From NCBI GenBank assembly GCA_021734445.1, contig JAIPIY010000001.1, positions 185,306-249,305 on the forward strand: DNA of 64,000 nucleotides. Direction: 5' to 3'. The notes beneath the pieces were generated by a model. That model ran no database searches, had not been told where the DNA came from, and worked only from the letters and a program-made list of their open reading frames with translations. Both the position numbers and the translations under genes were made by a program. Position 1 is the first letter of the stretch; each line of letters opens with the position of its first letter. Below are positions 2,902 to 59,693 of the stretch, piece after piece. The stretch is from Minisyncoccota bacterium. Its GTDB lineage: Bacteria > Patescibacteriota > Minisyncoccia > Phycocordibacterales > UBA1006.

Positions 2902-2904
2902 AGA

Positions 2905-4650
2905 TTATTCTGAAACAACGCGTAGGACCTCTTCTTTTGTGGTCATTCCCTGTATTGCAAGAAAAATACCGTCTTCTAATAATGTCATCATGCCATCTTT
3001 TTTTGCTTGTTCTTCTATGTCGTCCCCTGTTGCACCCTGAATAATAAGATTTTTAATTGCCGGGGTGATAGGTAATACTTCGTGAATACCCATACGACCT
3101 TTGAATGCATCTTCTTCATGACCCGAGGTTGGACGATAAAAAGGAACTTTTTCCCAGGTAGCATTTGCATCTACCACATTTTCTTGTTTCAAAAATTGCA
3201 TCATACGGTCTAGATCAATTTCTTTGCCCAACATTGCGACTTCATCTTTATTTAAAAAATATTGCTCTTTTTCTTCTCCTAGTTTACGAACCAAACGTTG
3301 TCCAATAACAACATCTAGTGTTGATACCAAAAGAAAAGGTTCGATTCCCATATCAATCAATCGTGGAACTGACCCAGCAGAAGAATTCGTGTGTAATGTT
3401 GATAGAACAAGGTGTCCCGTCAAAGCAGCATTAGTAGCTAACGAAGCTGTTTCTGTATCTCGAATTTCACCCACCATGAGAATATCTGGATCTTGACGCA
3501 ACAATGAACGAAGGCCATTTGCAAACGTAAAACCAATATCCGCACGTACCTGGCTTTGGTTGATGCGTGGCATTTGGTATTCAATAGGATCTTCGACGGT
3601 TGAAATATTTACGTCCGGAGTATTTAAAATATCTAATAATGTATACAACGTTGTTGATTTTCCAGAACCCGTTGGCCCTGTTGCCAAAATCATTCCTGTT
3701 TTATGTTTCAATGCACGATGAATAGATTCCAATCCTTGCCCATGAAATCCAAGACCTTCTAATGTAAAACCAGAAACTGATTCACGCAATAAACGCATAA
3801 CAATTTTTTCACCATAGTAGGTTGGCAATATCGAAACACGGAATGAAACTTTTTCATTATTCAAATCAATTTTGAAACGACCATCTTGGGGCAATCTTTT
3901 TTCATCTAATTTCAAATTAGACAGAACCTTGATACGTGCAGACAATCCCGAACCAGCGGTTTTTGGTAATTCCATAGCATCCCGCAAAATACCATCGATA
4001 CGATACCTCACCACCACACCCTTTTCATGTGGTTCGATATGGATATCAGAAGCACCCTGTAAAATAGCATGTGATAACAAGGTATCTACAATTTTTACCA
4101 CCGGTAAATCTTCTGCTAATTTTTTCAAATCTTCTTCCGATTGATTATCAGAAACATCATCATTAATTTTTTCTAAATGGATAGATTCTTTTTTGATAAT
4201 ATCATCAAATTCCCCCTGTAGACTTTTTCGGTATTGTAGTAATACATTTTTAATAGATTCAGTAGATGTCAGACGTGGCAATACTCGCAGTCCAACCTTT
4301 TTTTTAATAAATTCTATCGCAGGTAAATCACCCACATCCAACATGGCAACCTCTAACCCTGCAGGCGTTTTACGATAAGCAACCAAATTATGATTGCGGG
4401 CAATAGGTTCAGGGATCAAAGACAATACATCCATAGAAATCTTTTCGTGCGACAAATCAACAAAAGGAATTCCTGTCGCCCAAGCTTTTACACGACGAAG
4501 ACCATCTTCGGAAACATCATTGTTCGACAATAACACTTCTTCAATTGTTTTTCCTGTTTTTTTCGCTTGGGTTTCTGCATTTTTTAATACAGCAGAAGAA
4601 ACCATTCCAGCATCAAGTAAAAATTCTTTTAGTCTGTCTTCAGGACTCAT
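2905..4650 (-). CDS. pilB: Type IV pilus assembly ATPase PilB / GspE family
   Basis: Has the Walker A motif GPTGSGKST and Asp/His boxes, plus the N-terminal GSPII_E domain. 581 aa. Confidence 0.9.
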   Translation of the reverse strand: MSPEDRLKEFLLDAGMVSSAVLKNAETQAKKTGKTIEEVLLSNNDVSEDGLRRVKAWATGIPFVDLSHEKISMDVLSLIPEPIARNHNLVAYRKTPAGLEVAMLDVGDLPAIEFIKKKVGLRVLPRLTSTESIKNVLLQYRKSLQGEFDDIIKKESIHLEKINDDVSDNQSEEDLKKLAEDLPVVKIVDTLLSHAILQGASDIHIEPHEKGVVVRYRIDGILRDAMELPKTAGSGLSARIKVLSNLKLDEKRLPQDGRFKIDLNNEKVSFRVSILPTYYGEKIVMRLLRESVSGFTLEGLGFHGQGLESIHRALKHKTGMILATGPTGSGKSTTLYTLLDILNTPDVNISTVEDPIEYQMPRINQSQVRADIGFTFANGLRSLLRQDPDILMVGEIRDTETASLATNAALTGHLVLSTLHTNSSAGSVPRLIDMGIEPFLLVSTLDVVIGQRLVRKLGEEKEQYFLNKDEVAMLGKEIDLDRMMQFLKQENVVDANATWEKVPFYRPTSGHEEDAFKGRMGIHEVLPITPAIKNLIIQGATGDDIEEQAKKDGMMTLLEDGIFLAIQGMTTKEEVLRVVSE

Positions 4651-4726
4651 AGTAGCTTTATTATATCATAGAACAGTCAAGAAAAAATATTTCTTGACTG
4701 TTCATAAATCAAAAAAGTGGGAATAC

Positions 4727-4751
4727 TAAAACCCCTCAAGATGAGGGGTTT
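4727..4751. terminator. Hairpin aaaacccctc-aagat-gaggggtttt between the surface-protein gene and pilB
   Basis: Perfect 10-bp stem flanked by A and T runs. It separates the 4873-7386 gene from the pilus operon. Confidence 0.5.
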
Positions 4752-4872
4752 TAGTAAAGAAATTTCTATATCAAGATTATATCATTTTGAATTTTCGTGG
4801 CAATGGTAATTATTAACTGTTGTTAACAAGAACTACCCTTTCTAATCCTTGGGTGTTTTTTGATTTATACTT

Positions 4873-7386
4873 TTAGTTCACTTTCAAACAAATAGCTTCT
4901 GCATGTGCATCATTTGATTCTGCACCAGAGCATTGAACCCGCCAACCTTGTACATTATTAAATCTTGGTGTATCTAAAATATTTGTTGGGGTACATGAAC
5001 CACCAGCACTCGCTCCGGTACCACTAGTAGAAGGACAATTACCATTCATAACAGGAACAGGTTGAGATATTTTTATTTCACTTTCACAATCTCCTCCACC
5101 ACCTATAACGATATAACCAACTGGACACCACGCATAGGCAACATGGACCGGATTATCTCGACGAACACGAACAATGGAATCACCCTGTATTAGACTACTA
5201 TTAATTGTTTTCCAAGCTGCACTACCTGTTGCATCTGATGTAAGGACTTTTCCATCACCAGGGTCACCACCTGTTATTTTTACTTTTCCTAATATATCTA
5301 ACTTTGTCTCTGTTAATTGAGATGAATGACCGATAACAGTTTTGGAATTTTGATTGGTTGACATAGACACATAATTGGGCATTGAAGTAAACGGTGTATT
5401 AATTTGTGTAGCATTAGTACTAGAACGAACTCCTGAATTACTAACCCATTCACCTTCACCAGGTGCAGTACTGACCCAAACCAGAGTAGATCCAAGACCT
5501 AATACAACATCACCATCTGGTAATGCATCTGATTCCCAAGTTGCAAGACCATTACTATCTGAAGTCAACACTTTTCCTTGACCAGGATTACCACCACGAA
5601 TTTTTACTAGTCCAGAAACGTCCAGACCAAGATTCTGATTAGTTACCGGAAGGCCAACATAGGTAATACTTCCATTAGACAGCCCTAAAATTGATGATCC
5701 TGCAACAATAAGATCTGAAGTACCCGACATTGTTGAACCAAGGTTGGCTCCAATACGAACTTTTCCAGATCCATTTGCAAGAAGAGTGTTATTAAGAACC
5801 CATGCAGTCCCATTCCAACGAAGAGTAGCGTCATTTGTTCCAGCAGGTAATGTGCTTGGGGCTGGACGCCATCGAGCATTACCACTAGAATCAATAGCTG
5901 TTAAGACATCTCCGGCCACAATAGCAGGACTAGCATTTGTGCTTCGAAATCTTACCTCTCCTGCAACATCAAGCATTGCATTAATACCACCAAAACTGAC
6001 CCCAGCATTAGAACCAGCTCCAACCTGAGTTGTATTTAATCCAACCCCAAGACCTTCTGGGAAAACACTAGTATTACGCGCATGTATCGCACCCTCTACG
6101 TCAAGTTTACGTAGAGGGTTTGCAATACCGATACCTACATTTCCTGTATTTTCTTTTATAACAAGAGCATTTTGTGCTTGAAAAGTATTTAATGATAACC
6201 CGGAACCATTTGTTGCACGGATAAATTGATGCTGATCACCAAGATAAAGAGAGGCATTGGTTCCTGACCCAGCCCAAGTACCACGAGCTCTAATATCTCC
6301 GCTAACATCTAATTTATAACCTGGGTTTGTAGCCCCGACACCAACACTTGTCCCATTATCAAACAATTGAGAATTTCCCAATGTAGTTCCGTCGGGTGTC
6401 CATTTTGAAAGATAATTAAGTGTTCCAGAACCAGTAATTCCTGTAACACCTACTGGTTGTTGAACAATCCAAGTTGTTCCATTCCAAACCAAGATATCCC
6501 CATTAGTAGAACCGTTAGGCAAACCATTTGGAGCTGGTTGCCATGTTGCATAACCTTGTGCGTCAGATGTTAACACGCTACCTGCGGCAGGTGTTACACC
6601 TCCAATGCCACGATATCTAAAAGTTCCTGCCAGATTTAATGTAGGAGATTGCCCCCCCATACCCTCAGCAGCAACAGATGCATTAGCAGGATTATACGCG
6701 TCAAATATTTTAACAGAATTACCAGAACTTGATAAGCCAGATTCTGCTGTCCAACCAAATACACCCGGTGAAATCACTCCATATCTTAGTGTTTGATTAA
6801 ATGTACCTGCAGGTAAATTAGTTCCACCAGAAGCAGGTGCCCAAGTCACTAATCCAGTTGAATCAACAGCAGTCAATACATCACCTGGATTATTAGGGGT
6901 CATTCCTCTTACCGAAAATTGACCATTTTGATTAACACTAATACCACTTAACGCATCAGCATCATTGACTTGCCCTGCACGGAAAACATCTATTGGATTA
7001 GAGGTCGACTGAAAAAAATTCGTCGATGTTTTCCATCCTGCAAAAGTTGATCCATTATTTTTAACAAAAAGAGCTATTGGATTAACACCAATACCGCCGG
7101 CCTTGAACAAATTATGACTACCAGTCGCACCAATATCACCACAAGATGTTCCACCACCAACCAAAACAGACCCTGACTGACAAGGCTGTATATCAACCTT
7201 GTGACTACCAAAAAATGGAGCACTTAGGATACCTTGTTTAATTTGTGCAAAAGGTCCAACGTTCAATGGTGCAATGTTTGCCCCACCTCCTGTTGGCGCT
7301 CCGCCTGGATAGGTAAAGGCAGATGTCTGTAATCCAAAAGCCAATACAGAGAATGCAAATAATGATGTGATAATAATTTTTTTCAT
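4873..7386 (-). CDS. Large secreted Gly/Thr/Asn-rich repeat protein with a Cys-rich C-terminal domain (candidate surface adhesin / fibre)
   Basis: Signal peptide MKKIIITSLFAFSVLAFGLQTSA. About seven copies of a GxVLTSDxxGxxxW(x)P module, for example GDVLTAVDSTGLVTWAP, GSVLTSDAQGYATWQP and GKVLTSDATGSAAWK. About 10 Cys in the last 90 aa. Confidence 0.6.
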   Translation of the reverse strand: MKKIIITSLFAFSVLAFGLQTSAFTYPGGAPTGGGANIAPLNVGPFAQIKQGILSAPFFGSHKVDIQPCQSGSVLVGGGTSCGDIGATGSHNLFKAGGIGVNPIALFVKNNGSTFAGWKTSTNFFQSTSNPIDVFRAGQVNDADALSGISVNQNGQFSVRGMTPNNPGDVLTAVDSTGLVTWAPASGGTNLPAGTFNQTLRYGVISPGVFGWTAESGLSSSGNSVKIFDAYNPANASVAAEGMGGQSPTLNLAGTFRYRGIGGVTPAAGSVLTSDAQGYATWQPAPNGLPNGSTNGDILVWNGTTWIVQQPVGVTGITGSGTLNYLSKWTPDGTTLGNSQLFDNGTSVGVGATNPGYKLDVSGDIRARGTWAGSGTNASLYLGDQHQFIRATNGSGLSLNTFQAQNALVIKENTGNVGIGIANPLRKLDVEGAIHARNTSVFPEGLGVGLNTTQVGAGSNAGVSFGGINAMLDVAGEVRFRSTNASPAIVAGDVLTAIDSSGNARWRPAPSTLPAGTNDATLRWNGTAWVLNNTLLANGSGKVRIGANLGSTMSGTSDLIVAGSSILGLSNGSITYVGLPVTNQNLGLDVSGLVKIRGGNPGQGKVLTSDSNGLATWESDALPDGDVVLGLGSTLVWVSTAPGEGEWVSNSGVRSSTNATQINTPFTSMPNYVSMSTNQNSKTVIGHSSQLTETKLDILGKVKITGGDPGDGKVLTSDATGSAAWKTINSSLIQGDSIVRVRRDNPVHVAYAWCPVGYIVIGGGGDCESEIKISQPVPVMNGNCPSTSGTGASAGGSCTPTNILDTPRFNNVQGWRVQCSGAESNDAHAEAICLKVN

Positions 7387-7449
7387 AATGTGTTTCTTTA
7401 TTAATAAAACTTGTCTTGTAATAATTGTACTATAAACGGTTATAAAATT

Positions 7450-8874
7450 CTATATCTCCTGGAATCCCGGTCGTGGAATCCCTCCTCCTGGTCCTGGGCC
7501 ACATTGTGGGGATATAACAATTATTGTGCTATCTGAAACCATTACCCCATTTGCGCCCGTACAACTCAGTGTATAAGAAGTAGGAGAAGTCGATGCAGTA
7601 ACGGATGCAGAATCTGGTCCGTTTGTAATTACCTGGGAAATGGATGGTGACATTGTACAATTACCTACAGCATTTGAAACATTCCAATTTAACGTTCCGT
7701 TGCTATCAGTAGTACAAGATGCAGATAAACTTACTGAAGCGCCACCCGCAGGACACATAGACAGTACAGTTTGCCCCGTATAAGAATTAATATCATTAAT
7801 ATCATTACTCATACAAGATGCGTAAAAGATAATATCTGGATTAAGATCTGTAGATTGAATAATATTCGTATTCATCATTGCATCGTTACTACCTGAATAG
7901 AAAGTTGATTGATCAAGAACATTAGGGCTTGACGTAAATTGACATGTACTCATATCAACATCTTGACCCTGTGCAATAATAATTGCTCCCTGGCCAGGAA
8001 TAATACAAGACGGTTTTGTATAAAGATTTATTTGAGGGTTAAAAGTTACAGAAGTATCTTTAATACACAATGTAGGATCGCTAGGATCAATCACATATCC
8101 TTGTGGAATAAAATAATGAGGTCCGCCTGTAACGTTTGTACAATATACTGGTGGATTTGGATTTAACTGAACCATGACACCTTTGAAAAATATCCAACCC
8201 AAATCAATATCACCCCACGCATATCCATATAATTCAGCCATTCCTGTTATTGGATCATAGCTAATCATATTCACACCATATGGTTGGCCGTTTTGTGCAA
8301 CTCCACCCAAACTAATCCATCCATCCCAACCACCACGTGCTAACGGATCTAATAACGCACCACTACATCCAGATTGAAAAACGGCGCACGCACGCGCCCA
8401 ACCTTCTAATCGTCCATTTTGAATATCTAAACGTGCCATTACTGCTGGAACAAAACCATCTGGAGTAACATCTCCTGCACCCTGAAATCGAATATACCCA
8501 CTGGCATTACCCATAATAACAGGGTTCATACCACCACTATGCGTTGCACCCAAAAAAGAAGAGTATGCATACCCTGTCATTTCTCCTGTATTAGGATTAA
8601 CCGTTACAGACCAAGTTTGTGAAGGAGGAGCCCAAGGAGGGGTTAATGTTGCAAAATCATCAGAATCAAAACTAATCCAACCACCACCACGTCCATATGC
8701 GCCACCTCCGGGAAAATTTGTTTGATCTGAAGGATCTCCTGCATCAGACCATGCAAAACCTGACATAGTGCCAGGAGTATTTTGTGCAAATACCGAAGTA
8801 TCCGCCAAAAATATAGCAAATACACCAATAAGAGAAGCTAGCCCGACGAACATCATGTGGCGAAAATGCATCAT
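7450..8874 (-). CDS. Secreted hypothetical protein, Cys-rich in the C-terminal half
   Basis: N-terminal signal peptide (MMHFRHMMFVGLASLIGVFAIFLA...AQ). Its start overlaps the upstream gene's stop by 4 nt, suggesting translational coupling. Confidence 0.5.
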   Translation of the reverse strand: MMHFRHMMFVGLASLIGVFAIFLADTSVFAQNTPGTMSGFAWSDAGDPSDQTNFPGGGAYGRGGGWISFDSDDFATLTPPWAPPSQTWSVTVNPNTGEMTGYAYSSFLGATHSGGMNPVIMGNASGYIRFQGAGDVTPDGFVPAVMARLDIQNGRLEGWARACAVFQSGCSGALLDPLARGGWDGWISLGGVAQNGQPYGVNMISYDPITGMAELYGYAWGDIDLGWIFFKGVMVQLNPNPPVYCTNVTGGPHYFIPQGYVIDPSDPTLCIKDTSVTFNPQINLYTKPSCIIPGQGAIIIAQGQDVDMSTCQFTSSPNVLDQSTFYSGSNDAMMNTNIIQSTDLNPDIIFYASCMSNDINDINSYTGQTVLSMCPAGGASVSLSASCTTDSNGTLNWNVSNAVGNCTMSPSISQVITNGPDSASVTASTSPTSYTLSCTGANGVMVSDSTIIVISPQCGPGPGGGIPRPGFQEI

Positions 8875-9233
8875 ATATTTGATTGGTTAAACATATTCAT
8901 AAATTCTTCATTTGATTGTTGTACTTTTTCTTGTTCAGCTGGATCAGTTACCGGTTCTGGTGTTTCTGAGGTATTTTCAACATCATTTGTGTTTTCTCCA
9001 GAAAATGCATCAAAGAAAAGTTCGTTTGATTGTGAAATCTCTTGTTGAATACGCATACTGTCTTCTTCTGTATAATTATATTCAGGTGCTGTCATCGTAG
9101 TAAAATCAACAGCAGGTACTGATTCATCAAATTTCTTTTGATCCTGAATAACAAAAATCACCACAAGGACAATAACAACCAAAAGAATGATTGTAATCCA
9201 GATCCATAGGTGTGGTGATTTTTTTTCTGGCAT
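8871..9233 (-). CDS. Small single-pass membrane protein with an acidic tail
   Basis: TM segment LWIWITIILLVVIVLVVIFVI followed by a D/E-rich tail. Sits in an operon with 7450-8874. Confidence 0.4.
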   Translation of the reverse strand: MPEKKSPHLWIWITIILLVVIVLVVIFVIQDQKKFDESVPAVDFTTMTAPEYNYTEEDSMRIQQEISQSNELFFDAFSGENTNDVENTSETPEPVTDPAEQEKVQQSNEEFMNMFNQSNI

Positions 9234-9236
9234 AGA

Positions 9237-9488
9237 TTAGTTTGATTGTGCTTCTAATTCTAACATTAACGCTGCGATTTCTTCTTCGGTCAAAGGTTCA
9301 GGAGCTGGCTGTGCTTCTAGTTCTGCCATGAGCTCCGAAACTTCTTCTTCGTTCATCGGTTCTGCTGATTGACCATCAGACAAAGAAGATTTTTTTGGTG
9401 CACGAAGTGCAATAATAATAACCACTAAGAGAAGAACACTGATAAGAAGAAGGATAATAGTACGAAACGATGAATTGCTTTTTTCCAT
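9237..9488 (-). CDS. Small single-pass membrane protein with an internal EEE(V/I)xxLMxELEAQ duplication
   Basis: TM segment IILLLISVLLLVVIIIAL followed by two acidic repeats. It resembles the protein at 60171-60434. Confidence 0.4.
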   Translation of the reverse strand: MEKSNSSFRTIILLLISVLLLVVIIIALRAPKKSSLSDGQSAEPMNEEEVSELMAELEAQPAPEPLTEEEIAALMLELEAQSN

Positions 9489-9555
9489 ATACTTTTTATT
9501 ATAACAGAAAAAAAATAAAACAACAGCAATGTGGGGAAAAGATTAGGAGATAGCT

Positions 9556-51777: not shown

Positions 51778-53298
51778 CTATCTCGCGTATTCGATAATTC
51801 TTTGCTCTCGGATCAATGCAACTCGAATTTCTCCTGGATATTTTAGATCACTTTCAATTTTCTTTGCGATATCACGTGCTAATTGCTTGGCATGCAAATC
51901 AGAGACTTTTTCTGGGTATACAAACACACGAATTTCACGTCCTGCAGACAGTGCATACGATTTTTCAATACCTTCGAAGGAATTTGCGACGGCTTCTAGT
52001 TCTCGTAATCGTTTTAAATAGTTTTCTACGGTATCACGACGTGCCCCTGGGCGACCTCCTGATATCATATCGGCAGCCTGAACGATGATTGCCTCGATAG
52101 ATGCGTGTGGATAATCATCATGATGTGATTTCATTGCGTCAATAACCCGTTCATCTACGCCGAATTTTTGTAAAATACGAATTCCGATTTCAATATGAGT
52201 ACCCTGGACTTCATGATCCAATGCTTTTCCAATATCGTGTAATAATGCACCCGCTTTTGCTATGGCAACATCAGCGCCCAGTTCTTCGGCCAACATTCCT
52301 GCAATATGAGTCATTTCAATAGAATGCTGTAACACGTTTTGCCCATAGCTGGTTCGGAAATACAGTCGACCCACAATAGAAACAACCCGTGGATCCAAAT
52401 TGAATATACCACATTCATAAACCGCTTGTTCTCCTTTTTCTTTGATAATTTTATTGATTTCAGTTTTTGCTTTTTCAACTATTTCTTCTATTTTTGCTGG
52501 TTGAATACGTCCATCTAAAATAAGATTTTCCAATGCCAATCGTGCAATCTGACGACGAATAGGGTCAAATGATGAAATAACAATAGTTCCCGGAGTATCA
52601 TCAACAATCAATTCAACACCCGCTGTTCGTTCAAAAGCACGAATATTTCGTCCTTCTTTCCCAATAATTTTTCCTTTAACATCATCGTTCGGTATAGAAA
52701 CAGCCGTAGTGGTTACTTCGGATGCGGTCGAAGAAGCCAATCGGTTGATCACCGTAGCCAGTATATCTTTTGCTTTACGTTCGGTTTTTTCCTGCATAAA
52801 CAATTCTTGTTTTTGCATGTGGACCAACAAATCTTCTTCATATTGCTTTTCCACATCACGAAGCAATATATCCCGCGCTTCTTCTGATGATAATCGTGAT
52901 ATTTTTTCTAGTTCTTTTCTTTTTTCAAGTTCAGAATTTTGTATTCTTTCTTTGATTTTTTTTACTTCTTCTATCTTCACCTGCAATAACATTGATTCAC
53001 GATCCAAATCTGTTTGGCGCTTATCCAACAGTTCTTCTTTTTTCACCAATCGATCTTCAGTTTTTTTCAATTCAACCCGAGTTTCTTTTTCTTCTTGTTC
53101 CACCATCAATAGACGGTCTTCTGCTTTTTGTTTTGCTTCGTCTTTTATCTTTTGAGCATCATCTTTTGCTTGAAGGGTCATTTGTTTAACCTCGAGCTCT
53201 AAAGATTTTCGTTGCGAAATAGCAAAAAGATATCGCGCAATATACCCCAAAACACCCCCGACAATCAGGGTGACAAAAACGAGAATGATAGTATTCAT
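51778..53298 (-). CDS. rny: Ribonuclease Y
   Basis: N-terminal TM helix, coiled coil, a KH domain and the HD domain (LLHDIGKALDHE). The start is placed at MNTIIL. Confidence 0.9.
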   Translation of the reverse strand: MNTIILVFVTLIVGGVLGYIARYLFAISQRKSLELEVKQMTLQAKDDAQKIKDEAKQKAEDRLLMVEQEEKETRVELKKTEDRLVKKEELLDKRQTDLDRESMLLQVKIEEVKKIKERIQNSELEKRKELEKISRLSSEEARDILLRDVEKQYEEDLLVHMQKQELFMQEKTERKAKDILATVINRLASSTASEVTTTAVSIPNDDVKGKIIGKEGRNIRAFERTAGVELIVDDTPGTIVISSFDPIRRQIARLALENLILDGRIQPAKIEEIVEKAKTEINKIIKEKGEQAVYECGIFNLDPRVVSIVGRLYFRTSYGQNVLQHSIEMTHIAGMLAEELGADVAIAKAGALLHDIGKALDHEVQGTHIEIGIRILQKFGVDERVIDAMKSHHDDYPHASIEAIIVQAADMISGGRPGARRDTVENYLKRLRELEAVANSFEGIEKSYALSAGREIRVFVYPEKVSDLHAKQLARDIAKKIESDLKYPGEIRVALIREQRIIEYAR

Positions 53299-53550
53299 AT
53301 ATTTATAAGCACAGAACAAGGCTACACAAAAATGGACTACTCGCTTTCAAAAGAACCCGTGAACCTTTTCTTTGAACTATTTCAAAGAAGAAAGGTCTTT
53401 TACAAGGAATGGTACAAAAATCTCTGCATACACCCGTTATGTGCACCATACAATGAGATTAATAAAAAATACACGACATACTGAGAAAATACCATGAGAT
53501 GTGTATTAATCTCATGGTATCACAAAACATTGTAAATTGTCGAGAAAAAT

Positions 53551-54471
53551 CTAAAAATCGCCTTGATTCGAAGCAAAAGACTCTTGTGGCAACATAACCA
53601 TACTCAAAGACTGTGCAAATTCTTTTGAACGTCTTCGGAATGAATCTGGATACATAGGGAAATAGCTATTTCCTAATTCTGCAACTTTTGCCAAAGATTG
53701 TGACAATTGCAAAGCTAATTGATCTGCAAAAAGAGGATGATTTGATTTTTGATCAACAATAAATGCATACATTTCTTCTAATCGATTCGAATATTCATCC
53801 AAAGACAAATTTCGACACCAGTTTGTAACATTGTCTAGATCAAAAAAATGCAATTCTCGTGCGCGAACGTATTCATTCAAATACCCTTCTTTCAAAGGTT
53901 TTAATAATTCATTCACCTGATATGCCGTTATCGCCAATGCATCGCCTTCTTTATACACATCTCCAGCGCATTCTTTTGCTATTTCTGCCAATGGGCGTAT
54001 GTTTCGCACCATATCATAAAAATATTCTTCACGTCCTGTACCTGGTAATGAAGAAAACAATGTTGCCAAAGATTCTCGTACCAAATCAGCAAACGCTCGT
54101 CTGTCTTTTTCTCCAACCAGAGGTAATTTGGTATTTTCTAAAAATGATTTCAATTGATCAGTGTCTTCCAATGTCAACAAAAGTTCTTTTTGATAGGTAT
54201 TTTCATCTGAAAAAGAAGATTCTAACGAAACGCCGAAACCAGCATTTCGAAGAGTAGGGGCATATGCAATTTGAAATTTCTCCGGAGAAATTTGATTATG
54301 CAAAGGGTCTTTTGGGTCTGGGTGTTCATCACCCATATCACGACCAGAAGATGCATCTGGGGTATACATACGCGCACGATCTAATGCATCCAAGCAGTTT
54401 GCAATATTCTCCAATTCTGGAGACTGAAATGCTTCACGAGATTGAAAAACAGGAGTTCGTTCCATAGACAT
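53551..54471 (-). CDS. Hypothetical protein translationally coupled to clpP
   Basis: Its ATG overlaps the clpP stop (TAATG). 306 aa with no recognisable domain. It occupies the position where clpX usually lies. Confidence 0.5.
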   Translation of the reverse strand: MSMERTPVFQSREAFQSPELENIANCLDALDRARMYTPDASSGRDMGDEHPDPKDPLHNQISPEKFQIAYAPTLRNAGFGVSLESSFSDENTYQKELLLTLEDTDQLKSFLENTKLPLVGEKDRRAFADLVRESLATLFSSLPGTGREEYFYDMVRNIRPLAEIAKECAGDVYKEGDALAITAYQVNELLKPLKEGYLNEYVRARELHFFDLDNVTNWCRNLSLDEYSNRLEEMYAFIVDQKSNHPLFADQLALQLSQSLAKVAELGNSYFPMYPDSFRRRSKEFAQSLSMVMLPQESFASNQGDF

Positions 54472-55058
54472 TATTTACGTTTATCAATAATTTTATCAAC
54501 GATACCGTATTTTTTGGCATCTTCTGCATTCATATAAAAATCACGCTCTACATCGGTTTCAATTTTTTTAATAGCTTGTCCTGTATTTTTTGCAAGAATT
54601 TTATTCAAATTATCACGTGTTTGCAAAATATGTTTTGCAGTAATAGCGATATCGGTTGCCTGACCTTCGACACCACCTAATGGCTGATGAATCATGACTT
54701 CGGCGTTTGGTAGGATAAAACGTTTTCCTTTTTCTCCTGATGACAACAACAATGCCCCAGCCGAAGCAGCCATACCCACACAAATAGTCGAAACTGCGGG
54801 CTTAATAAAATGCATGGTGTCATAGATTGCCATCGCTGCAGTTACCGAACCCCCAGGGGAATTGATATACAACTGAATATCTTTTGTGCTGTCTTCGGAT
54901 TCAAGAAACAATAACTGGGCAATAATAATATTAGCTACATGGTCATTAATCGGGCCACCCAAGAAAATAATACGTTCACGCAATAATCGTGAATAAATAT
55001 CGTACGCACGTTCACCAAATTGTGATTTTTCGATAACGGTTGGAATAAGAATTGACAT
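54471..55058 (-). CDS. clpP: ATP-dependent Clp protease proteolytic subunit
   Basis: Catalytic triad context ...[11 protein letters not shown]... HQPLGG ...; 195 aa. Confidence 0.95.
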
Positions 55059-55132
55059 AATATTTAAAATAAAAGGAATAATCTGTATCTCACGTGGTTA
55101 GTATAACAGAATTGTATTAAAAAATCATTTCT

Positions 55133-56113
55133 TTAATACAAAGAGATTTTCAAGCTTTTTTGAAGATTATATGTATTCCCGTGGCTCAATAGCCCTCGAT
55201 ATGAATTTACTGTTTCAGGTTTTGGATAATTTCTAAGGTTTTTTATCACCTTTCGCTTGGTTGTTGTTCTTATCTGACGATAATGAGGAAAATGTACCCA
55301 GCCCAAGAAATCAACGCCCGAAGCATATGTTTTTATGTACACTTTATCTGGATGAAGCTGTAATTTTAACGTGTTATTTAAAAATAAGTTTATGTTAGAT
55401 AATAAATTTTCAAGATATTTTTTGTCTTGAGACAAAATAACGAAATCATCAGCATATCGAATATAATACCTTACCCGAAGTTCTTGTTTCATATACATAT
55501 CAAACTCATGCATATAAATATTCACAAGCAACTGCGATGTCAGATTCCCCAGTGGCAACCCAACACCTTCTCGAGTTATCTGAAAGCTTTTTATCACTTG
55601 ATGTATCAACCACAACATCTCATCATCTGCAATATGTCGTTTTAAAATAGATTTTAGTACATCATGATCAATACTTGCAAAAAATTTTCTCACGTCACAT
55701 TTTAAAACGTAACATGTTTTTGTATTATTTTTTGATACTTTATTTGCGAACACCTTAAATCTTTCAAACGCCCGATGGGTACCTTTATATTTACGACATG
55801 AATATGAGTCATAAATAAATCTATCATCAAAATACCAATACAATTCTTTATAAATTAAATGATGTACCACCCTATCACGAACAATTGCTTTATGAATATT
55901 TCTTGGTTTAGGGTCAGAAACATTAAATGCAAAATATCCTGAATGTTCGTAGGTTCTTGTATGTAACATAGTATGTAGTTCTATAATATTATCTGCAAGA
56001 TGTGCTTCAAATTCCATGACATCTTTTTTATTACGCTTGCCACGGATAAAACGCCCCCATGTCGAGAGAATATTTTCTATTGATATGATATTATGATAAG
56101 TATGAGTGAACAT
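55133..56113 (-). CDS. Diversity-generating retroelement (DGR) reverse transcriptase
   Basis: RT motifs 1-7 are present, including YADDFVIL. The DGR-specific motif-4 signature GLPLGNLTSQLLVNIY (SQ instead of SP) is also present. 326 aa, adjacent to the TR/VR pair. Confidence 0.8.
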   Translation of the reverse strand: MFTHTYHNIISIENILSTWGRFIRGKRNKKDVMEFEAHLADNIIELHTMLHTRTYEHSGYFAFNVSDPKPRNIHKAIVRDRVVHHLIYKELYWYFDDRFIYDSYSCRKYKGTHRAFERFKVFANKVSKNNTKTCYVLKCDVRKFFASIDHDVLKSILKRHIADDEMLWLIHQVIKSFQITREGVGLPLGNLTSQLLVNIYMHEFDMYMKQELRVRYYIRYADDFVILSQDKKYLENLLSNINLFLNNTLKLQLHPDKVYIKTYASGVDFLGWVHFPHYRQIRTTTKRKVIKNLRNYPKPETVNSYRGLLSHGNTYNLQKSLKISLY

Positions 56114-56495
56114 AATAAAAACATTAAATCTACCCCCCCCCCCGTTAGTATTGGTACGAGCAAAAGAAGTGTATCGTGTGTGGCACTTGCATCTTTCTCA
56201 TGTTAAACGAGTTGATCGTTATACTATTGGAACAAAAATTGATGATGAATTTATATCTATTCTTGAAATAATATTCCGAGCAACTTTTGCGTATGATAAA
56301 TTTGAAAAACTTTCTCTTGTGTCACAAGCTCTTGGTAAAAATGATCTTCTAAAATTCTTTCTGCAATTAGGTTGGGAACAAAAAGTTCTTAATCACACAA
56401 TATACGGACAACTCATTATTCTTTTGGATGAAGTTGGACGTATGTTAGGTGGTTGGAAGAAAAATCTCCAAGAAAAAACTCCCACCAACAAATAA
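56106..56495 (+). CDS. Avd-like accessory variability determinant, on the opposite strand to the RT
   Basis: The C-terminal LLDEVGRMLGGWKKNLQEK resembles the bAvd C-terminal EVGRILGSWI helix. About 125 aa with helical-bundle-like composition. A non-ATG (GTG/TTG) start is needed. Confidence 0.55.
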   Translation: MNIIKTLNLPPPPLVLVRAKEVYRVWHLHLSHVKRVDRYTIGTKIDDEFISILEIIFRATFAYDKFEKLSLVSQALGKNDLLKFFLQLGWEQKVLNHTIYGQLIILLDEVGRMLGGWKKNLQEKTPTNK

Positions 56496-56515
56496 GTTAG
56501 TGGGAGAAAAAAATG

Positions 56516-56637
56516 AGTAGCAGAAGCACAACAGGCAATTGTCACCGTCCCAGTCATTCTCGAAGTTCCCGAGGTTGAACTTCCAGTCACCGTCCGAGTT
56601 CCGGTTCACGTTCGGCACCCTGTGGTAACCGTCAGAG
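56516..56637 (-). repeat. DGR template repeat (TR)
   Basis: About 122 bp, aligning without gaps to the VR at 56983-57104. 20 of 22 mismatches are minus-strand A in the TR against another base in the VR. In frame it encodes an Asn(AAC)-rich segment NVNRNSDGDWKFNLGNFENDWDGDN. Confidence 0.75.
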
Positions 56638-56977
56638 GACGCCCAAGCTTTTTGTATGAAATATTGTCTATTCCACCACATCTAACACCAGTCAGACGTT
56701 GTATTTCATTTGGAGTTTAAAAACTCTCTCATATTTCACACCGACTTATTTTTGTTTTTTCATTCAAGGAGGCTCTCGTTTCAAAGGCGTACCCATCAAA
56801 CTTCTCGCCAAAACCCTGTACGAGATTTCAATGCCGTGAAGTCGTAACCGCACGTTCGTATCTACTTTCCAAAATCAGTATAACTGAAATATAAAAAATA
56901 AAAAAGAGCACTTGCTTTCGCAAGTGCTCAAAGGGTCAAAGACCCAAATTAGAAACAAGGTACCAAGTGCCAAAGGA

Positions 56978-57643
56978 CTATAAGTCGCAGAAGCACAACA
57001 GGCAACGGACACCGACCCAGTCAAGCCCGAAGTCCCCGAGGAGGAACCAACAGCCACCGTCCGAGCACCGGAACACGAGCGGCACCCTGCGGTAACCGTC
57101 AGAGTCTTTCCACAGAGAATCCTTTTCATCAAAGGACACTGTGTATTTACCCACCGGAAACTCGTCTGGCTTGTTGGCTTGCAACAAAGTGAGACCTTGT
57201 CCACCCACGAGGATGGCATGTTGCTTCGCAAGGAATCTCATACAATCTTCGCTGGTTACCGTTGCCAATATCGGGAAGATTCGCACGCGATACTTCTTGC
57301 TCGGCTCCAGCTCGTTGGTCGCTTTCGCAAAATTCTTGCTGGTAAGGGCATCATTGAAGTAATACGTGGTTGAAAGCAGTTTGGTCTTCCCGGCAAAGGT
57401 ATCGAGCTGGGTGTCGTGCTTGTAATCTGACGGCACCGTGAACTCGAAATCCTTTATTGCGGGACCGAAACGCTGGTCCACCATGGCAAGTTTTTGCAGG
57501 ATCGGCTTGATCTGTTTCTGCATTTCACCACCAGATTTGATAATTTCCTGAGCCTCTTCTTTTGAGAGGTTCAACGCCCTGAGACCATCTCGAAAGAGGT
57601 CGGTCAGACGATTTTCTTGGCTTGACGTGATCTTTTCAGTCAT
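56978..57643 (-). CDS. DGR target protein with the variable region at its C-terminus
   Basis: The last 41 codons (...DGYRRVPLVFRCSDGGCWFLLGDFGLDWVGVRCLLCFCDL) overlie the VR. A hairpin agcacttgctttcgcaagtgct lies 50 nt past the stop. Confidence 0.7.
   Translation of the reverse strand: MTEKITSSQENRLTDLFRDGLRALNLSKEEAQEIIKSGGEMQKQIKPILQKLAMVDQRFGPAIKDFEFTVPSDYKHDTQLDTFAGKTKLLSTTYYFNDALTSKNFAKATNELEPSKKYRVRIFPILATVTSEDCMRFLAKQHAILVGGQGLTLLQANKPDEFPVGKYTVSFDEKDSLWKDSDGYRRVPLVFRCSDGGCWFLLGDFGLDWVGVRCLLCFCDL
56983..57104 (-). other. DGR variable repeat (VR) inside the target gene's 3' end
   Basis: See the TR entry. The 3' 17 nt adjacent to the stop are near-identical to the TR (IMH-like), and the 5' 14 nt are identical. 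Confidence 0.75.
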
Positions 57644-57840
57644 CGTTCTTGTTTTTAAATCGTGAAAAAGGACTATTCCTGATTCTGGTATATCATAGCA
57701 TGAATGAGTATAAAAGTCAAATATTAGACTTGAATTCTTTGGGATTCCCTCATGCGCCTGCCTTTGCCGGCAAACAGGCGGGAATAACTGTTGGATGTGT
57801 TCAGATTCCCACCTACGTGGGAATGACAGCAGAGGAGGAG

Positions 57841-57870
57841 GAAAAACCCCGTCGCTCGCGAGCGACGGGG
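57841..57870 (-). terminator. tig terminator ccccgtcgctcgcgagcgacgggg + T-run on the minus strand
   Basis: Perfect 12-bp palindrome; on the minus strand it is followed by TTTTTC. The same hairpin family occurs at 59641-59672. Confidence 0.55.
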
Positions 57871-57876
57871 TTAAAC

Positions 57877-58947
57877 TTATTTCTTACCTCCTTTTTCCAA
57901 AAATCCAAAGACTTTTTGGTTGGTTACCACCTGATCCACATACGCACGCACATGTTGTTCATCAGCATCTTTGTAGTTTTCCATAACCTTTGTAACTTCT
58001 GGTAGTAATTCTTCTTCTGTTGCCTGCAATTTTTCTTCTTCTGCAATTTTGGTAACTACCATTTGCATCAAAGCTCGTTTTTCTGCATCTGGTCTCCAAT
58101 CGTTTCGTAGATCTTCTCGAGTTTTGTTAATATGCTGTAGATAATCATCTGTTTTGATACCCATGTTTGCGATATCTCCTTCCATGCGGTGCATCATGGT
58201 ATCCAATTCATGTTCTACAATAATATCTGGCAATTCTACCGCAGTTTTTTCCAAGATAGCATCCATGATCAACAGCCGTACACGGTCTGATTCTTTTTGT
58301 TCTTTTTCTACCAACATGTTTTCTTTGATTTTTGCAGTCAATTCATCCACTGTTTTAAAATCTCCAATAGTTTGTGCAAAAGCATCATCCAACACTGGCA
58401 AATCTTCTTCTTTTATTTCATCTTTTCCATGAGAACACTCTTCTCCTTCTTCACACGTATGAGGGCCTGCTTCTTTTTCTGCTCGCATTTTGCGTAATTG
58501 AAGAAGGGTTTTCTCCATTTCAGCATCTTCTACCGTGACTGTCTTTTTTTCTTTGAGATTTTTTTCTGCAATTTTTGTATATTCAGGAAGTTTGATTTCA
58601 GGCAAAACTGCAGTAACGATTTTGTATTCTACAGGATTTCCTACAGCCAATTTGGTCAGGGTAATTTCAGGTCGTCCAATAGCATCTATTTTGTGTTCCA
58701 TCAAAATATCCACATAATGTTTTCCTACTGCCAAATATGCCATTTCTTCTAAAATAGGGGTTTCACCAACCTTTGCAACAAGGATTTTTTCAGGAACTTC
58801 GCCTTTGCGAAAACCATCAATTTTTACATTTTCTGCAACACGTTTTACCGCTTGGGCGCGATATTTTTCCAACATATCAGCTGGAAGGGTTGCGGTTATC
58901 TCAACTTGGCTTTTTGGTAATGTTTGTATTTTTGCTTGTGTACTCAT
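57877..58947 (-). CDS. tig: Trigger factor (short form)
   Basis: N-terminal ribosome-binding domain (...ENVKIDGFRKGEVPEKIL...) plus PPIase/C-domain remnants. Upstream of clpP in the canonical arrangement. Confidence 0.8.
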   Translation of the reverse strand: MSTQAKIQTLPKSQVEITATLPADMLEKYRAQAVKRVAENVKIDGFRKGEVPEKILVAKVGETPILEEMAYLAVGKHYVDILMEHKIDAIGRPEITLTKLAVGNPVEYKIVTAVLPEIKLPEYTKIAEKNLKEKKTVTVEDAEMEKTLLQLRKMRAEKEAGPHTCEEGEECSHGKDEIKEEDLPVLDDAFAQTIGDFKTVDELTAKIKENMLVEKEQKESDRVRLLIMDAILEKTAVELPDIIVEHELDTMMHRMEGDIANMGIKTDDYLQHINKTREDLRNDWRPDAEKRALMQMVVTKIAEEEKLQATEEELLPEVTKVMENYKDADEQHVRAYVDQVVTNQKVFGFLEKGGKK

Positions 58948-59579: not shown

Positions 59580-59693
59580 CCCCACACAACAACACACCCC
59601 GTCGACCATCTTTGGTTGACGGGGTATTTTTTTACTCATCATAAATCAAAACCCCGTCGTTCGCGAACGACGGGGTGATTGTTAAATTATTAG

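What the first reader, a model, noticed from the sequence alone, without database searches (positions are those of the whole stretch)
55133..57643. Complete diversity-generating retroelement inserted between tig and clpP, with Avd on the opposite strand
A 122-bp minus-strand repeat at 56516-56637 (TR) aligns without gaps to the 3' end of the 221-aa gene at 56978-57643 (VR, 56983-57104).
- I counted 22 mismatches. At 20 of them the TR has minus-strand A where the VR has C, G or T, which is the hallmark of adenine-specific mutagenic retrohoming.
- The TR frame is Asn(AAC)-rich (NVNRNSDGDWKFNLGNFENDWDGDN), as in canonical DGR templates.
- The adjacent 326-aa RT carries the DGR-specific GNLTSQ motif-4 signature and YADD.
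- An Avd-like gene (C-terminal EVGRMLGGW helix) lies between the TR and RT, but on the opposite strand, which is an atypical layout.
- A hairpin at 56907-56928 follows the target stop.
- The cassette sits inside the otherwise conserved tig-clpP interval.
- The target has no signal peptide.
Basis: partly seen in the sequence, partly recalled or inferred. Interest (0 to 1): 0.85.

Follow-up and report, generated by a model that had tools for sequence, protein, structure and literature searches.

The report
Typical CPR-bacterium diversity-generating retroelement
This is a genuine, complete diversity-generating retroelement of the ordinary kind found in candidate-phyla-radiation bacteria; its reversed accessory gene is normal for that group, but its whole clade also shares a large structured RNA and a slippery repeat that I did not find described.

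Summary
TR (56516-56637, minus strand) and VR (56983-57104) align without gaps, with 22 mismatches, 20 of them at TR adenines (Fisher p=4e-15). All 27 TR adenines sit at codon positions 1 or 2.

- **RT:** its best solved relative is the Bordetella phage DGR enzyme bRT.
- **Opposite-strand gene:** it passes the Pfam bAvd cut-off.
- **Target:** a 221-aa protein that models confidently as a distant C-type-lectin-like fold.
- **Host:** a Candidatus Pacebacteria (CPR) genome.

The "atypical" target–TR–(avd)–RT layout is the CPR norm. It is architecture B3 of Wu et al. 2018, found in 90% of their CPR set. I found it in 11 related genome loci, and avd lay opposite the RT in 65/65 metagenome loci where it was detectable.

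A sibling element is demonstrably active. Two population variants differ at 10 bases in 5.8 kb, all in VR and all at TR adenines.

Three clade-wide features were found in passing:
1. A covarying structured RNA of about 235 nt lies just 5' of TR and matches no Rfam family.
2. A terminator-like hairpin lies just 3' of TR.
3. A perfect poly-C or (TC)n repeat sits at the avd start. It usually puts the canonical avd ATG out of frame.

The parts
57692..57720 (-). Sigma-70-like promoter candidate for the target gene (TTGACT-17-TGnTATGAT)
   Evidence: 10 of 12 matches with an extended -10. This is a consensus match only.
56978..57643 (-). DGR target gene: 221 aa, with an N-terminal three-helix segment followed by a distant C-type-lectin-like domain, and no signal peptide
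56983..57104 (-). Variable repeat (VR), encoding the last ~40 residues of the target
   Evidence: The family alignment shows scattered hypervariable columns only here.
56987..57005 (-). Adenine-free 3' segment of VR (TTGCCTGTTGTGCTTCTGC), identical to TR 56520-56538; an IMH-like boundary
   Evidence: The next position (TR T / VR G, 56519 / 56986) differs in 7 of 12 family loci, while VR is always G. Information transfer therefore stops upstream of it.
56906..56929 (-).
   Evidence: The position is conserved but the sequence varies in related loci.
56877..56882 (-). TATACT, a candidate -10 box for the TR-containing RNA
   Evidence: T, A, A and T of TATAMT are invariant in 18 loci, directly after the target terminator. 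Its function is inferred.
56654..56855 (-). Conserved structured RNA domain 5' of TR. P1 56834-56855 (UACG-capped); P2/P2a/P2b 56760-56823 enclosing P3 56778-56801 (UACG-capped); an A-rich linker; P4 56654-56741 enclosing P5 and P6
   Evidence: 55 pairs, 35 with compensatory changes in 17 loci; 92-97% of cells paired, against 58-83% in shuffles and 31-53% when partners are slid. Models R1 and R2 each hit the window once. No Rfam family at E<=10.
56516..56637 (-). Template repeat (TR)
56479..56506 (-). Hairpin (11 bp, CUCCCAC.../...GUGGGAG) plus U-run directly 3' of TR. It overlaps the avd stop codon. It is a terminator-like end of the TR RNA and/or the counterpart of the Avd-binding stem-loop
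   Evidence: terminator-like; conserved in the 12 family loci; compensatory A-U to G-C change in L012. RNAfold predicts a hairpin followed by a U-run at this position in most of 40 wider-clade loci, with varied stem sequences. Handa et al. 2024 report stem-loops just downstream of TR in 207 of 278 DGRs.
56106..56495 (+). avd (accessory variability determinant), on the strand opposite to target, TR and RT. The ORF as listed starts at GTG 56106. The clade's canonical ATG is at 56102-56104, the reverse complement of RT codon 4
   Evidence: Pfam PF22296 bAvd, 41.6 bits against a cut-off of 40. NCBIfam DivGenRetAVD, 51 bits, below its cut-off of 80. for the start codons.
56133..56143 (+). C11 homopolymer (G11 on the RT strand) at the 5' end of avd, 20-30 nt upstream of the RT start codon. 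With C11 the canonical avd ATG is out of frame; C10 or C13 would restore it
   Evidence: the only C/G run of 8 or more in the 64-kb window; an SSR sits at the same place in 63 of 75 loci (poly-G/C 6-15 nt, or (GA/TC)n 17-35 nt); translation from the ATG stops after 34 codons.
55133..56113 (-). DGR reverse transcriptase, 326 aa, with LGNLTSQ and YADD
   Evidence: RVT_1; best PDB match 8ub7_A, E 3e-35. Its residue numbering (I181, G182, Q187, D215, D216) matches bRT as described by Handa et al.. Group II intron RTs score 1e-19 and the retron match 8e-4.

Best explanation
The region is a chromosomal diversity-generating retroelement of the type standard in candidate-phyla-radiation (Patescibacteria) bacteria. 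It corresponds to cassette architecture B3 of Wu et al. 2018 and probably to the Patescibacteria-restricted clade 2 of Roux et al. 2021.

**Shown**
- An intact DGR-type RT and an Avd homologue are present.
- TR and VR are 122 nt long. Their differences are almost all at TR adenines, and all of those adenines sit at codon positions 1 or 2.
- The target is a 221-aa protein without a signal peptide. Its C-terminal domain models as a distant C-type-lectin-like fold.
- Across the family, variation is confined to the last ~40 residues of the target.
- A sibling element (RT 75% identical) has diversified its VR at TR-adenine positions only, between otherwise identical population variants.

**Inferred mechanism, by analogy with the Bordetella phage BPP-1 DGR**
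1. The TR is transcribed.
2. RT and Avd reverse-transcribe it, misincorporating opposite adenines.
3. The cDNA replaces the VR up to an adenine-free, IMH-like 3' boundary.
4. This rewrites about 20 codon positions of the ligand-binding face of the target.

**Inferred from the anatomy seen here**
- The target gene is its own transcription unit, with a promoter-like site and a terminator.
- The TR lies in a separate non-coding RNA of about 390 nt. This RNA has a -10-like box, a covarying 5' domain of about 235 nt with eight helices, the TR, and a terminator-like 3' hairpin.
- Because avd is antisense downstream of TR, the RNA scaffold that lies 3' of TR in BPP-1 is probably supplied here mainly by the 5' domain.
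For: **TR/VR statistics:**

**RT.** The best solved relative is bRT at E 3e-35, against 1e-19 for group II intron RTs. bRT residue numbers match those in Handa et al..

**Avd.** Pfam bAvd is above its cut-off.

**Host and family.** The exact match is a Candidatus Pacebacteria MAG protein. There are 219 homologues, and every source-named one in the listed hits is from a CPR lineage.

**Layout.**
- The same layout is found in 11 genome loci.
- avd is on the opposite strand in 65/65 metagenome loci where it is detectable.
- B3 accounts for 90% of CPR DGRs (PMC5758913).
- CPR DGR targets typically lack TM or known domains (PMC8144416).

**A-bias in relatives.** All 11 related TR/VR pairs show it, for example 14/14, 18/18, 11/11 and 20/21 mismatches at TR adenines.

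**VR-restricted variation.** Within 90%-identity protein clusters, 15/15, 19/20 and 9/10 variable columns fall in the last 42 aa.

**Sibling element.** L108 and L117 differ at 10 positions in 5.8 kb. All are in VR and all are at TR adenines.

**RNA anatomy:**
Against: - No reads were available, so activity in this particular organism is not shown. An independent Logan assembly (L025) is 100% identical over 16.9 kb.
- Two TR/VR mismatches are not at adenines.
- With C11 the clade's canonical avd ATG is out of frame. Avd here depends on a GTG start 4 nt downstream, or on slippage.
- NCBIfam's Avd model scores below its cut-off.
- The transcription start, the RNA 3' end and the role of the 5' RNA domain are inferred from conservation only.
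Confidence: 0.9

Rival explanations
1. The cassette is a DGR that was active in the past but is now silent or decaying in this organism.
For: - The canonical avd ATG (56102) is out of frame with C11, and translation from it stops after 34 codons.
- There is one non-adenine TR/VR difference inside the mutable part, G>T at 56583. Two related strains keep the TR base there.
- Two assemblies are identical, with no visible VR variants.
Against: - RT, avd (from GTG 56106) and the target are all open and full length.
- The catalytic motifs are intact.
- All RNA elements match the clade models at high score, 105 and 138 bits.
- The strain L024, 89% identical, has C8. That is a difference of exactly 3, so the GTG frame is preserved.
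- VR density of change between strains is 17 per 100 nt, against about 3-5 per 100 nt elsewhere in the gene.
Confidence: 0.12
2. The RT belongs to another retroelement class (retron, group II intron, or defence RT), and the repeat is an ordinary duplication of a gene 3' end.
For: NCBIfam's best-scoring model is the group II intron RT/maturase, at 142 bits. No DGR-specific RT model matched in that library.
Against: - That score is far below the model's cut-off of 300, and every other RT model is also below its cut-off.
- bRT is the best solved match by 16 orders of magnitude.
- An Avd gene, A-specific mismatches (p=4e-15) and the absence of third-position adenines cannot come from a plain duplication.
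- No intron RNA domains or msr/msd match was found in Rfam.
Confidence: 0.01

Closest known systems
CPR-set DGRs with cassette architecture B3, TR-(avd)-RT (Wu et al. 2018, NAR, PMC5758913); probably the Patescibacteria-restricted DGR clade 2 of Roux et al. 2021 (PMC8144416), although I built no RT tree
   Same: - The gene order and orientation are the same: target, TR, reversed avd, RT.
- The host is a CPR bacterium and the location is chromosomal, among housekeeping genes.
- The target is small, with no transmembrane segment and no recognisable domain.
- The mismatches are A-specific.
   Different: Nothing in the layout differs. This particular target family (VR ending ...CLLCFCD) could not be matched to Wu's UVR1-6 classes because their supplements were not available. 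The 5' RNA domain and the avd repeat are not mentioned in the papers I could read.
Bordetella phage BPP-1 DGR (mtd-avd-TR-brt) and its DGR RNA ribonucleoprotein (Handa et al. 2018, PMC6182149; Handa et al. 2024, bioRxiv 10.1101/2023.10.23.563531)
   Same: - The RT is homologous: E 3e-35, with (I/L)GxLTSQ and Y(M/A)DD.
- An Avd is present.
- TR adenines are placed at codon positions 1 and 2.
- VR lies at the 3' end of a C-type-lectin-type target.
- A stem-loop sits directly 3' of TR, as the BPP-1 Avd-binding stem-loop does.
- The RNA stems are capped by UNCG-type tetraloops.
   Different: - avd is reversed and lies between TR and RT.
- After the first stem-loop, the region 3' of TR is antisense avd preceded by a U-run. 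The 140-nt Sp scaffold (primer strand, cPRT stop, thumb ring, bRT-binding stem-loop) therefore has no evident counterpart there.
- Instead, a structured domain of about 235 nt lies 5' of TR.
- The element is chromosomal, not phage-borne.
- The target has no tail-fibre context.
C-type-lectin-fold DGR variable proteins (Mtd, TvpA, and FGE-type DUF323/DUF1566 targets)
   Same: - VR is C-terminal.
   Different: - There is no sequence-level match to any Pfam, NCBIfam or PDB entry.
- Foldseek finds nothing significant.
- The protein is only 221 aa, is cytoplasmic by sequence, and has a conserved Cys-rich end (CLLCFC).
Simple-sequence contingency loci (poly-G/C or dinucleotide tracts at gene 5' ends in Neisseria, Haemophilus, Campylobacter)
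   Same: - It is a perfect homopolymer or dinucleotide repeat placed just after a start codon.
- Its length differs between lineages (6-15 nt, or 17-35 nt).
- Two repeat types occupy the same site.
- The reading frame relative to the start codon is usually off.
   Different: - No length polymorphism was seen within one population sampled in 11 contigs.
- Switching has not been observed.
- The gated gene would be a cofactor of a mutagenic RT, which I did not find described.

Membership tests
Diversity-generating retroelement (DGR) | Reverse transcriptase of the DGR clade, with motif 4 (I/L)GxxxSQ and Y(A/M)DD | tested here: met
   LGNLTSQ and YADD are present. The best PDB match is bRT (8ub7_A) at E 3e-35, against 1e-19 for group II and 8e-4 for the retron match. 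No RT tree was built.
Diversity-generating retroelement (DGR) | A TR/VR pair whose differences are concentrated at TR adenines | tested here: met
   20 of 22 mismatches are at TR adenines, and 20 of 27 adenines are changed, against 2 of 95 other bases (p=4e-15).
Diversity-generating retroelement (DGR) | VR inside, typically at the 3' end of, a protein-coding target, with TR adenines at codon positions 1 and 2 | tested here: met
   VR encodes residues ~181-220 of 221. Adenines fall at positions 1/2/3 as 9/18/0.
Diversity-generating retroelement (DGR) | IMH at the VR 3' end, a non-identical IMH* at the TR 3' end, and a GC-rich inverted repeat downstream | tested here: inconclusive
   A 19-nt adenine-free identical segment is followed by a TR-T / VR-G difference, which fits a 3' boundary. 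The short hairpins just after VR show no covariation: 72.9% paired against 72.0% in shuffles. The only strong inverted repeat there is a terminator. Wu et al. find the inverted repeat in only 34% of DGRs.
Diversity-generating retroelement (DGR) | Ongoing mutagenic retrohoming (VR heterogeneity within a population) | not testable with these tools
   No reads were available, and two assemblies of this organism are identical. By proxy, a sibling element differs between populations only at VR positions opposite TR adenines: 10/10 and 15/15. Variation within protein clusters is confined to VR.
CPR-type DGR, architecture B3 (Wu et al. 2018) | Core order TR-(avd)-RT with avd on the reverse strand, in a CPR host | tested here: met
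   Coordinates. The exact-match target protein is annotated to a Candidatus Pacebacteria MAG. The definition and the 90% figure are. Relatives share the layout.
Avd (bAvd-like, PF22296) | A protein of about 110-135 aa matching the family profile above its curated cut-off | tested here: met
   Pfam: 41.6 bits against a cut-off of 40, E 1.9e-10, covering profile positions 9-106 of 107. NCBIfam NF033474: 51 bits, below its cut-off of 80. The structure was not predicted.
C-type-lectin-fold variable protein | The VR-bearing domain adopts the C-type-lectin fold | tested here: inconclusive
Phase-variable contingency locus | A slippage-prone repeat in the coding 5' end or promoter whose length changes switch expression within a population | tested here: inconclusive
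   The repeat is present and conserved in position in 63/75 loci. The canonical ATG is in frame in 7/7 repeat-less loci but in only 8/51 repeat-bearing loci (P=0.004 against one third). However, all 11 contigs of one species carry G10, and switching has not been observed.
Any described RNA family (Rfam 15, including the RT-1 to RT-19 motifs of Weinberg et al. 2017, which I assume from memory are in Rfam) | A match of the 5' RNA domain to a curated covariance model | tested here: not met
   The E-value-mode scan of 54900-58000 found no match over 56640-56873. The only hits were sub-threshold and terminator-like, at 56471-56522 and 56896-56954.

The most novel reading that the evidence does not exclude
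In this large CPR DGR clade the machinery may be organised and controlled differently from the Bordetella paradigm, in two ways.

(a) **RNA organisation.** The template would be carried by an autonomous non-coding RNA of about 390 nt. Its protein-recruiting and priming scaffold would be the covarying eight-helix domain 5' of TR, not a spacer 3' of TR.

(b) **Control of Avd.** Production of Avd, and hence adenine mutagenesis itself, would be gated by a slippage-prone poly-C or (TC)n tract placed right after the avd start codon. This could work by DNA-level phase variation or by transcriptional or translational slippage. Most cells would then keep the hypermutator off.

I put (a) alone at about 0.5 and (b) alone at about 0.3. 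The probability given below is for (b), the more novel part.
Probability: 0.3. Interest if true: 0.7.

Novelty: new member of a known kind. Interest (0 to 1): 0.38.

Why it matters
As found, the element adds one more example to a class already known to be abundant in CPR bacteria, so the finding itself changes little. The by-products have more value, because all mechanistic knowledge of DGRs comes from one phage element whose RNA scaffold lies 3' of the template.

- **5' RNA domain.** A clade with thousands of members carries a conserved, strongly covarying domain 5' of the template and only a terminator-like hairpin 3' of it. This gives a concrete second model for how RT and Avd recognise, prime and stop on their RNA. 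It also provides two covariance models that locate TRs in CPR genomes.
- **Repeat at the avd start.** If the repeat proves to switch Avd on and off, it would be a case of a stochastic switch controlling a targeted hypermutation system. That bears on how cells limit the cost of self-mutagenesis.
- **Target family.** It is cytoplasmic by sequence, has about 220 known members and no known domain. It remains an open question what a diversified intracellular binder does in an episymbiotic bacterium.

Tried and rejected
- **Second target.** I looked for a second VR or target in the window using the TR 18-mer, blastn of the TR and tblastn of the target. None was found.
- **Hairpins after VR.** I tested the short hairpins right after the VR stop (about 56962-56974 and 56929-56941) as DGR recognition hairpins. 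RNAalifold predicts nothing, and the pair counts equal the shuffles. Rejected for lack of support.
- **Linker pairing with antisense avd.** I considered a cPRT-stop-like duplex between the linker before TR and the antisense-avd RNA (the EVGRML/GGW codons). Synonymous changes there do not preserve pairing, for example L005 CCTCC against GGTGG. Dropped.
- **A-rich linker pairing with the 3' U-run.** The sequence is of too low complexity to test, so this is left open.
- **SSR length polymorphism.**
  - L002 and L003 are identical.
  - The P0136 look-up collapsed 23 places into one.
  - Only two near-identical pairs exist among 63 loci.
  - All 11 contigs of one species carry G10.
- **Literature.** The supplements of Wu et al. 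are not held. Paul et al. 2017 (PMC5436926) is not held. Prior description of the target class or the RNA could therefore not be excluded.
- **Foldseek against PDB.** Nothing significant.
Full report
**1. The observation**

- RT at 55133-56113(-), 326 aa.
- An ORF on the opposite strand at 56106-56495(+), 129 aa.
- The target at 56978-57643(-), 221 aa.
- clpP at 54471-55058(-) and tig at 57877-58947(-) on either side (Pfam).

My recount of the repeat gives a gapless 122-nt alignment of 56516-56637 with 56983-57104, with 22 mismatches. Twenty are at TR adenines (A>T 9, A>G 7, A>C 4). The other two are G>T at 56583 and T>G at 56519. Twenty of 27 adenines are changed, against 2 of 95 other bases (Fisher p=4e-15).

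All 27 TR adenines lie at codon positions 1 or 2 (9, 18 and 0), and there are five in-frame AAC codons. The repeat finder finds the pair independently. The 3' 18-mer occurs exactly twice in the window, against 0.01 expected.

**2. The parts**

*RT.* It matches RVT_1. Its best solved relative is 8ub7_A, a 328-aa chain, at E 3e-35. Group II intron RTs score 1e-19 and the retron match 8e-4. In the printed alignment the chain's I181, G182, Q187, D215 and D216 coincide with the bRT residues named by Handa et al., so 8ub7 is the Bordetella phage DGR RT. The query has LGNLTSQ and YADD at the matching places. NCBIfam has no DGR RT match, and all of its RT models score below their cut-offs.

*Avd.* The opposite-strand ORF passes the Pfam bAvd gathering score (41.6 against 40). 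It matches NCBIfam's Avd model below its cut-off (51 against 80).

*Target.* It has no Pfam, NCBIfam or PDB sequence match. It has 219 homologues. Every hit that a source names is from Paceibacterota, Nomurabacteria or Minisyncoccia. The exact sequence is a hypothetical protein of a Candidatus Pacebacteria MAG on a 252-kb contig.

- An AlphaFold model built from 38 family members is confident (pLDDT 92.9). It shows three N-terminal helices followed by an alpha/beta domain.
- Foldseek finds nothing significant, although its weak top hits are again C-type-lectin domains.
- I therefore call the fold a distant C-type-lectin-like one, not a confirmed member.
- The N-terminus is hydrophilic and helical, so there is no signal peptide.

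**3. Is the layout unusual?**

No.
- Wu et al. 2018 define architecture B3 as TR-(avd)-RT with avd reversed. [quoted passage not shown]
- Roux et al. 2021 describe a Patescibacteria-restricted DGR clade whose targets typically lack transmembrane or known domains (PMC8144416).
- Nineteen genome loci encode a relative of the target. Eleven of them carry target(+)-TR(+)-avd(-)-RT(+) exactly as here.
- In all eleven the TR/VR pair is 120-126 nt with A-dominated mismatches, for example 14/14, 18/18, 11/11 and 20/21.
- Eighty metagenome loci were anchored on RT relatives of 57-73% identity. avd is on the opposite strand in all 65 where it can be detected.

**4. Position in the genome**

Only one other locus has tig, clpP and rny nearby: L019, equivalent to L002 and L003, from Minisyncoccia. 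There tig and clpP are neighbours, and the cassette lies on the far side of tig in the opposite orientation, next to ppa and nusA. The window has the order nusA-ppa-...-tig-[DGR]-clpP-rny.

Other members sit next to unrelated housekeeping genes. The cassette therefore moves as a unit among core genes. "Inserted between tig and clpP" is a fair description of this genome but is not a property of the family. Six genome loci carry the target gene with no RT, avd or TR within 7 kb.

**5. Is it active?**

No reads were available, and a Logan assembly (L025) is identical to the window over 16.9 kb. The indirect evidence is strong.
1. Against two related strains (L023 at 92% and L024 at 89.5% nucleotide identity), substitutions pile up in VR and fall at TR-adenine positions.
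2. Within 90%-identity clusters of target homologues, the variable columns lie almost only in the last 42 residues: 15 of 15, 19 of 20 and 9 of 10.
3. One sibling species was sampled in 11 contigs (RT 75% identical to the window's).
   - L108 and L117 differ at 10 positions in 5.8 kb, all in VR and all opposite TR adenines.
   - L118 has 15 VR differences, all opposite TR adenines, plus 4 inside the TR.

The family is therefore diversifying in nature. For this organism, activity remains an inference.

**6. Transcription units and RNA (found in passing)**

Related loci have a strong hairpin plus T-run at the same position but with unrelated sequences. That is how terminators behave. A promoter-like site lies at 57692-57720.

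*Start of the TR RNA.* Directly after the terminator, a TATAMT box has its T, A, A and T invariant in 18 loci (window 56877-56882).

*The 5' domain.* From there to the TR the sequence is a conserved structured RNA. RNAalifold on 17 loci predicts 55 pairs, 35 of them with compensatory changes. In window coordinates:
- P1 is at 56834-56855 and is capped by UACG.
- P2, P2a and P2b span 56760-56823 and enclose P3 (56778-56801), which is also capped by UACG.
- An A-rich single strand follows.
- P4 (56654-56741) encloses P5 and P6.

*Covariation tests.*

| Alignment | Paired cells | Shuffled | Partners slid |
|---|---|---|---|
| 3' half (P4-P6), 12 loci | 96.8% | 83.2% | 31-53% |
| 3' half (P4-P6), 52 sequences | 92.0% | 68.5% | 36-50% |
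| 5' half (P1-P3), 46 sequences | 94.2% | 58.5% | up to 50% |

*Distribution.*
- Model R1 (3' half) hits 48 of the 52 RT-anchored loci that have enough upstream sequence. All but one truncated hit at a contig end lie on the RT strand, ending about 480-650 nt before the RT start.
- Model R2 (5' half) hits 45 loci.
- Each model hits the window once.
- Most of these loci lack the window's target family, so the RNA belongs to the RT clade, not to this target.

*Prior description.* No Rfam 15 family matches it at E<=10. Weinberg et al. 2017 linked their RT-10 motif to the BPP-1 TR-RT spacer (PMC5737381). From memory, their RT motifs are in Rfam, and none appears here.

*The 3' hairpin.* Directly after the TR comes a hairpin plus U-run (56479-56506), which is terminator-like. 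It is conserved in all 12 family loci, with one compensatory change. RNAfold predicts the same arrangement, with varied stems, in most of 40 wider-clade loci. It overlaps the avd stop codon.

*Comparison with BPP-1.* Handa et al. 2024 found the following for BPP-1:
- An Avd-binding stem-loop lies immediately 3' of TR.
- It is followed by the primer strand, the cPRT stop, the thumb ring and a bRT-binding stem-loop, all within the 140-nt spacer.
- Their survey inspected only 40 nt upstream and 100 nt downstream of TR.

Here, what follows the first stem-loop is a U-run and antisense avd. I therefore infer that the TR is carried by a separate RNA of about 390 nt, and that most of the scaffold has moved to the 5' side. 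This is inference from conservation. The priming site is unknown.

**7. The repeat at the avd start (found in passing)**

The window has C11 at 56133-56143. It is the only C/G run of 8 or more in 64 kb. Across 75 loci that have both an RT start and avd, 63 carry a perfect repeat at this spot: poly-G/C of 6-15 nt in 54, and (GA/TC)n of 17-35 nt in 9.

In the repeat-less loci whose RT codon 4 is CAT, the reverse complement of that codon is an ATG in frame with avd (7 of 7). The canonical avd start therefore overlaps the RT start by 12 nt (ATGnnnnnnCAT). In repeat-bearing loci that ATG is in frame in only 8 of 51 (frames 0/1/2 = 8/21/22; P=0.004 against one third).

In the window the ATG (56102) is out of frame and translation stops after 34 codons. 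A GTG at 56106 is in frame. The related strain L024 has C8, a difference of exactly 3.

In the sibling species that is visibly diversifying, the tract is G10 and the ATG is in frame. But all 11 contigs carry G10, so no polymorphism is seen in consensus assemblies.

Possible readings are:
- a contingency switch on Avd;
- programmed slippage giving low Avd levels;
- a pyrimidine/purine-rich untranslated element, with translation starting downstream;
- partly, homopolymer length error in assemblies.

I found no paper linking DGRs to homopolymer tracts or phase variation in the held library.

**8. Tested and not supported**

The short hairpins just after VR show no covariation. A duplex between the pre-TR linker and antisense avd is not maintained through synonymous changes.

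**9. Verdict**

As a DGR it is a new member of a known kind. The interest lies in the clade-wide 5' RNA domain, which is well supported as a structure and was not found described, and in the avd repeat, which is well supported as a feature but whose function is open.

Noticed in passing
window 56654-56873 (-); also L004-L019, L024 and 45-51 of L026-L106: A structured RNA domain of about 235 nt with eight helices lies immediately 5' of the TR. Covariation is strong: 55 pairs, 35 of them compensatory. It is conserved across the RT clade whatever the target, and it matches no Rfam 15 family.
   Followed up: yes
window 56133-56143 (+), at the avd/RT junction; same site in 63 of 75 related loci: A perfect poly-C/G tract (6-15 nt) or (TC/GA)n repeat (17-35 nt) sits just after the canonical avd start codon. 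That ATG is in frame in 7/7 repeat-less loci but in only 8/51 repeat-bearing loci. The window has C11, which puts the ATG out of frame and a GTG in frame. The repeat may gate Avd by slippage.
   Followed up: partly
window 56102-56113: The RT and avd start codons overlap divergently. RT begins ATGTTCACTCAT, and the reverse complement of its codon 4 (CAT) is the canonical avd ATG. Each gene's promoter must therefore lie inside the other gene or further away.
   Followed up: partly
window 56479-56506 (-): A hairpin plus U-run lies directly 3' of the TR and overlaps the avd stop codon. It is found across the wider clade with varied stem sequences. It is probably the end of the TR RNA, the Avd-binding stem-loop counterpart, or both.
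   Followed up: yes
window 56877-56882 (-): A TATACT box, with T, A, A and T invariant in 18 loci, lies right after the target terminator. It is a candidate -10 element for a separate TR transcript. No -35 was recognised.
   Followed up: partly
window 55100-57650: Base composition contrasts sharply inside the cassette. RT and avd are about 31% G+C and the target gene about 51%, against about 38% in the flanks.
   Followed up: no
window 57877-58947 (-): The trigger factor is only 356 aa. It matches Trigger_N (4-150) and Trigger_C (199-337) but has no Pfam match to a PPIase domain in the ~50 residues between them.
   Followed up: no
window 57843-57872 and 59648-59676: Two copies, 93% identical, of a 29-nt perfect palindrome (AAAACCCCGTCGCTCGCGAGCGACGGGGT) follow tig and another gene. 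They form a repeated terminator-like element.
   Followed up: no
window 53551-54471 (-): A 306-aa ORF between clpP and rny has no Pfam or NCBIfam match. It is absent from the same interval in L019.
   Followed up: no
L019 (= L002, L003) 2396-9539, compared with window 51778-58947: The same synteny block (nusA, ppa, tig, clpP, rny) holds the DGR cassette at a different position and in the opposite orientation in a Minisyncoccia genome. The cassette therefore relocates as a unit.
   Followed up: partly
L001/L008, L009, L010, L013, L020, L021: Target homologues with typically diversified C-termini occur with no RT, avd or TR within 6-7 kb. They may be remote targets or orphans.
   Followed up: no
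L010 7419-7630: The target homologue carries an internal 99-nt tandem duplication that is 95.6% identical.
   Followed up: no
L118 positions equivalent to L108 3709-3719: Four differences between population variants of one species lie inside the TR itself, not in VR.
   Followed up: no
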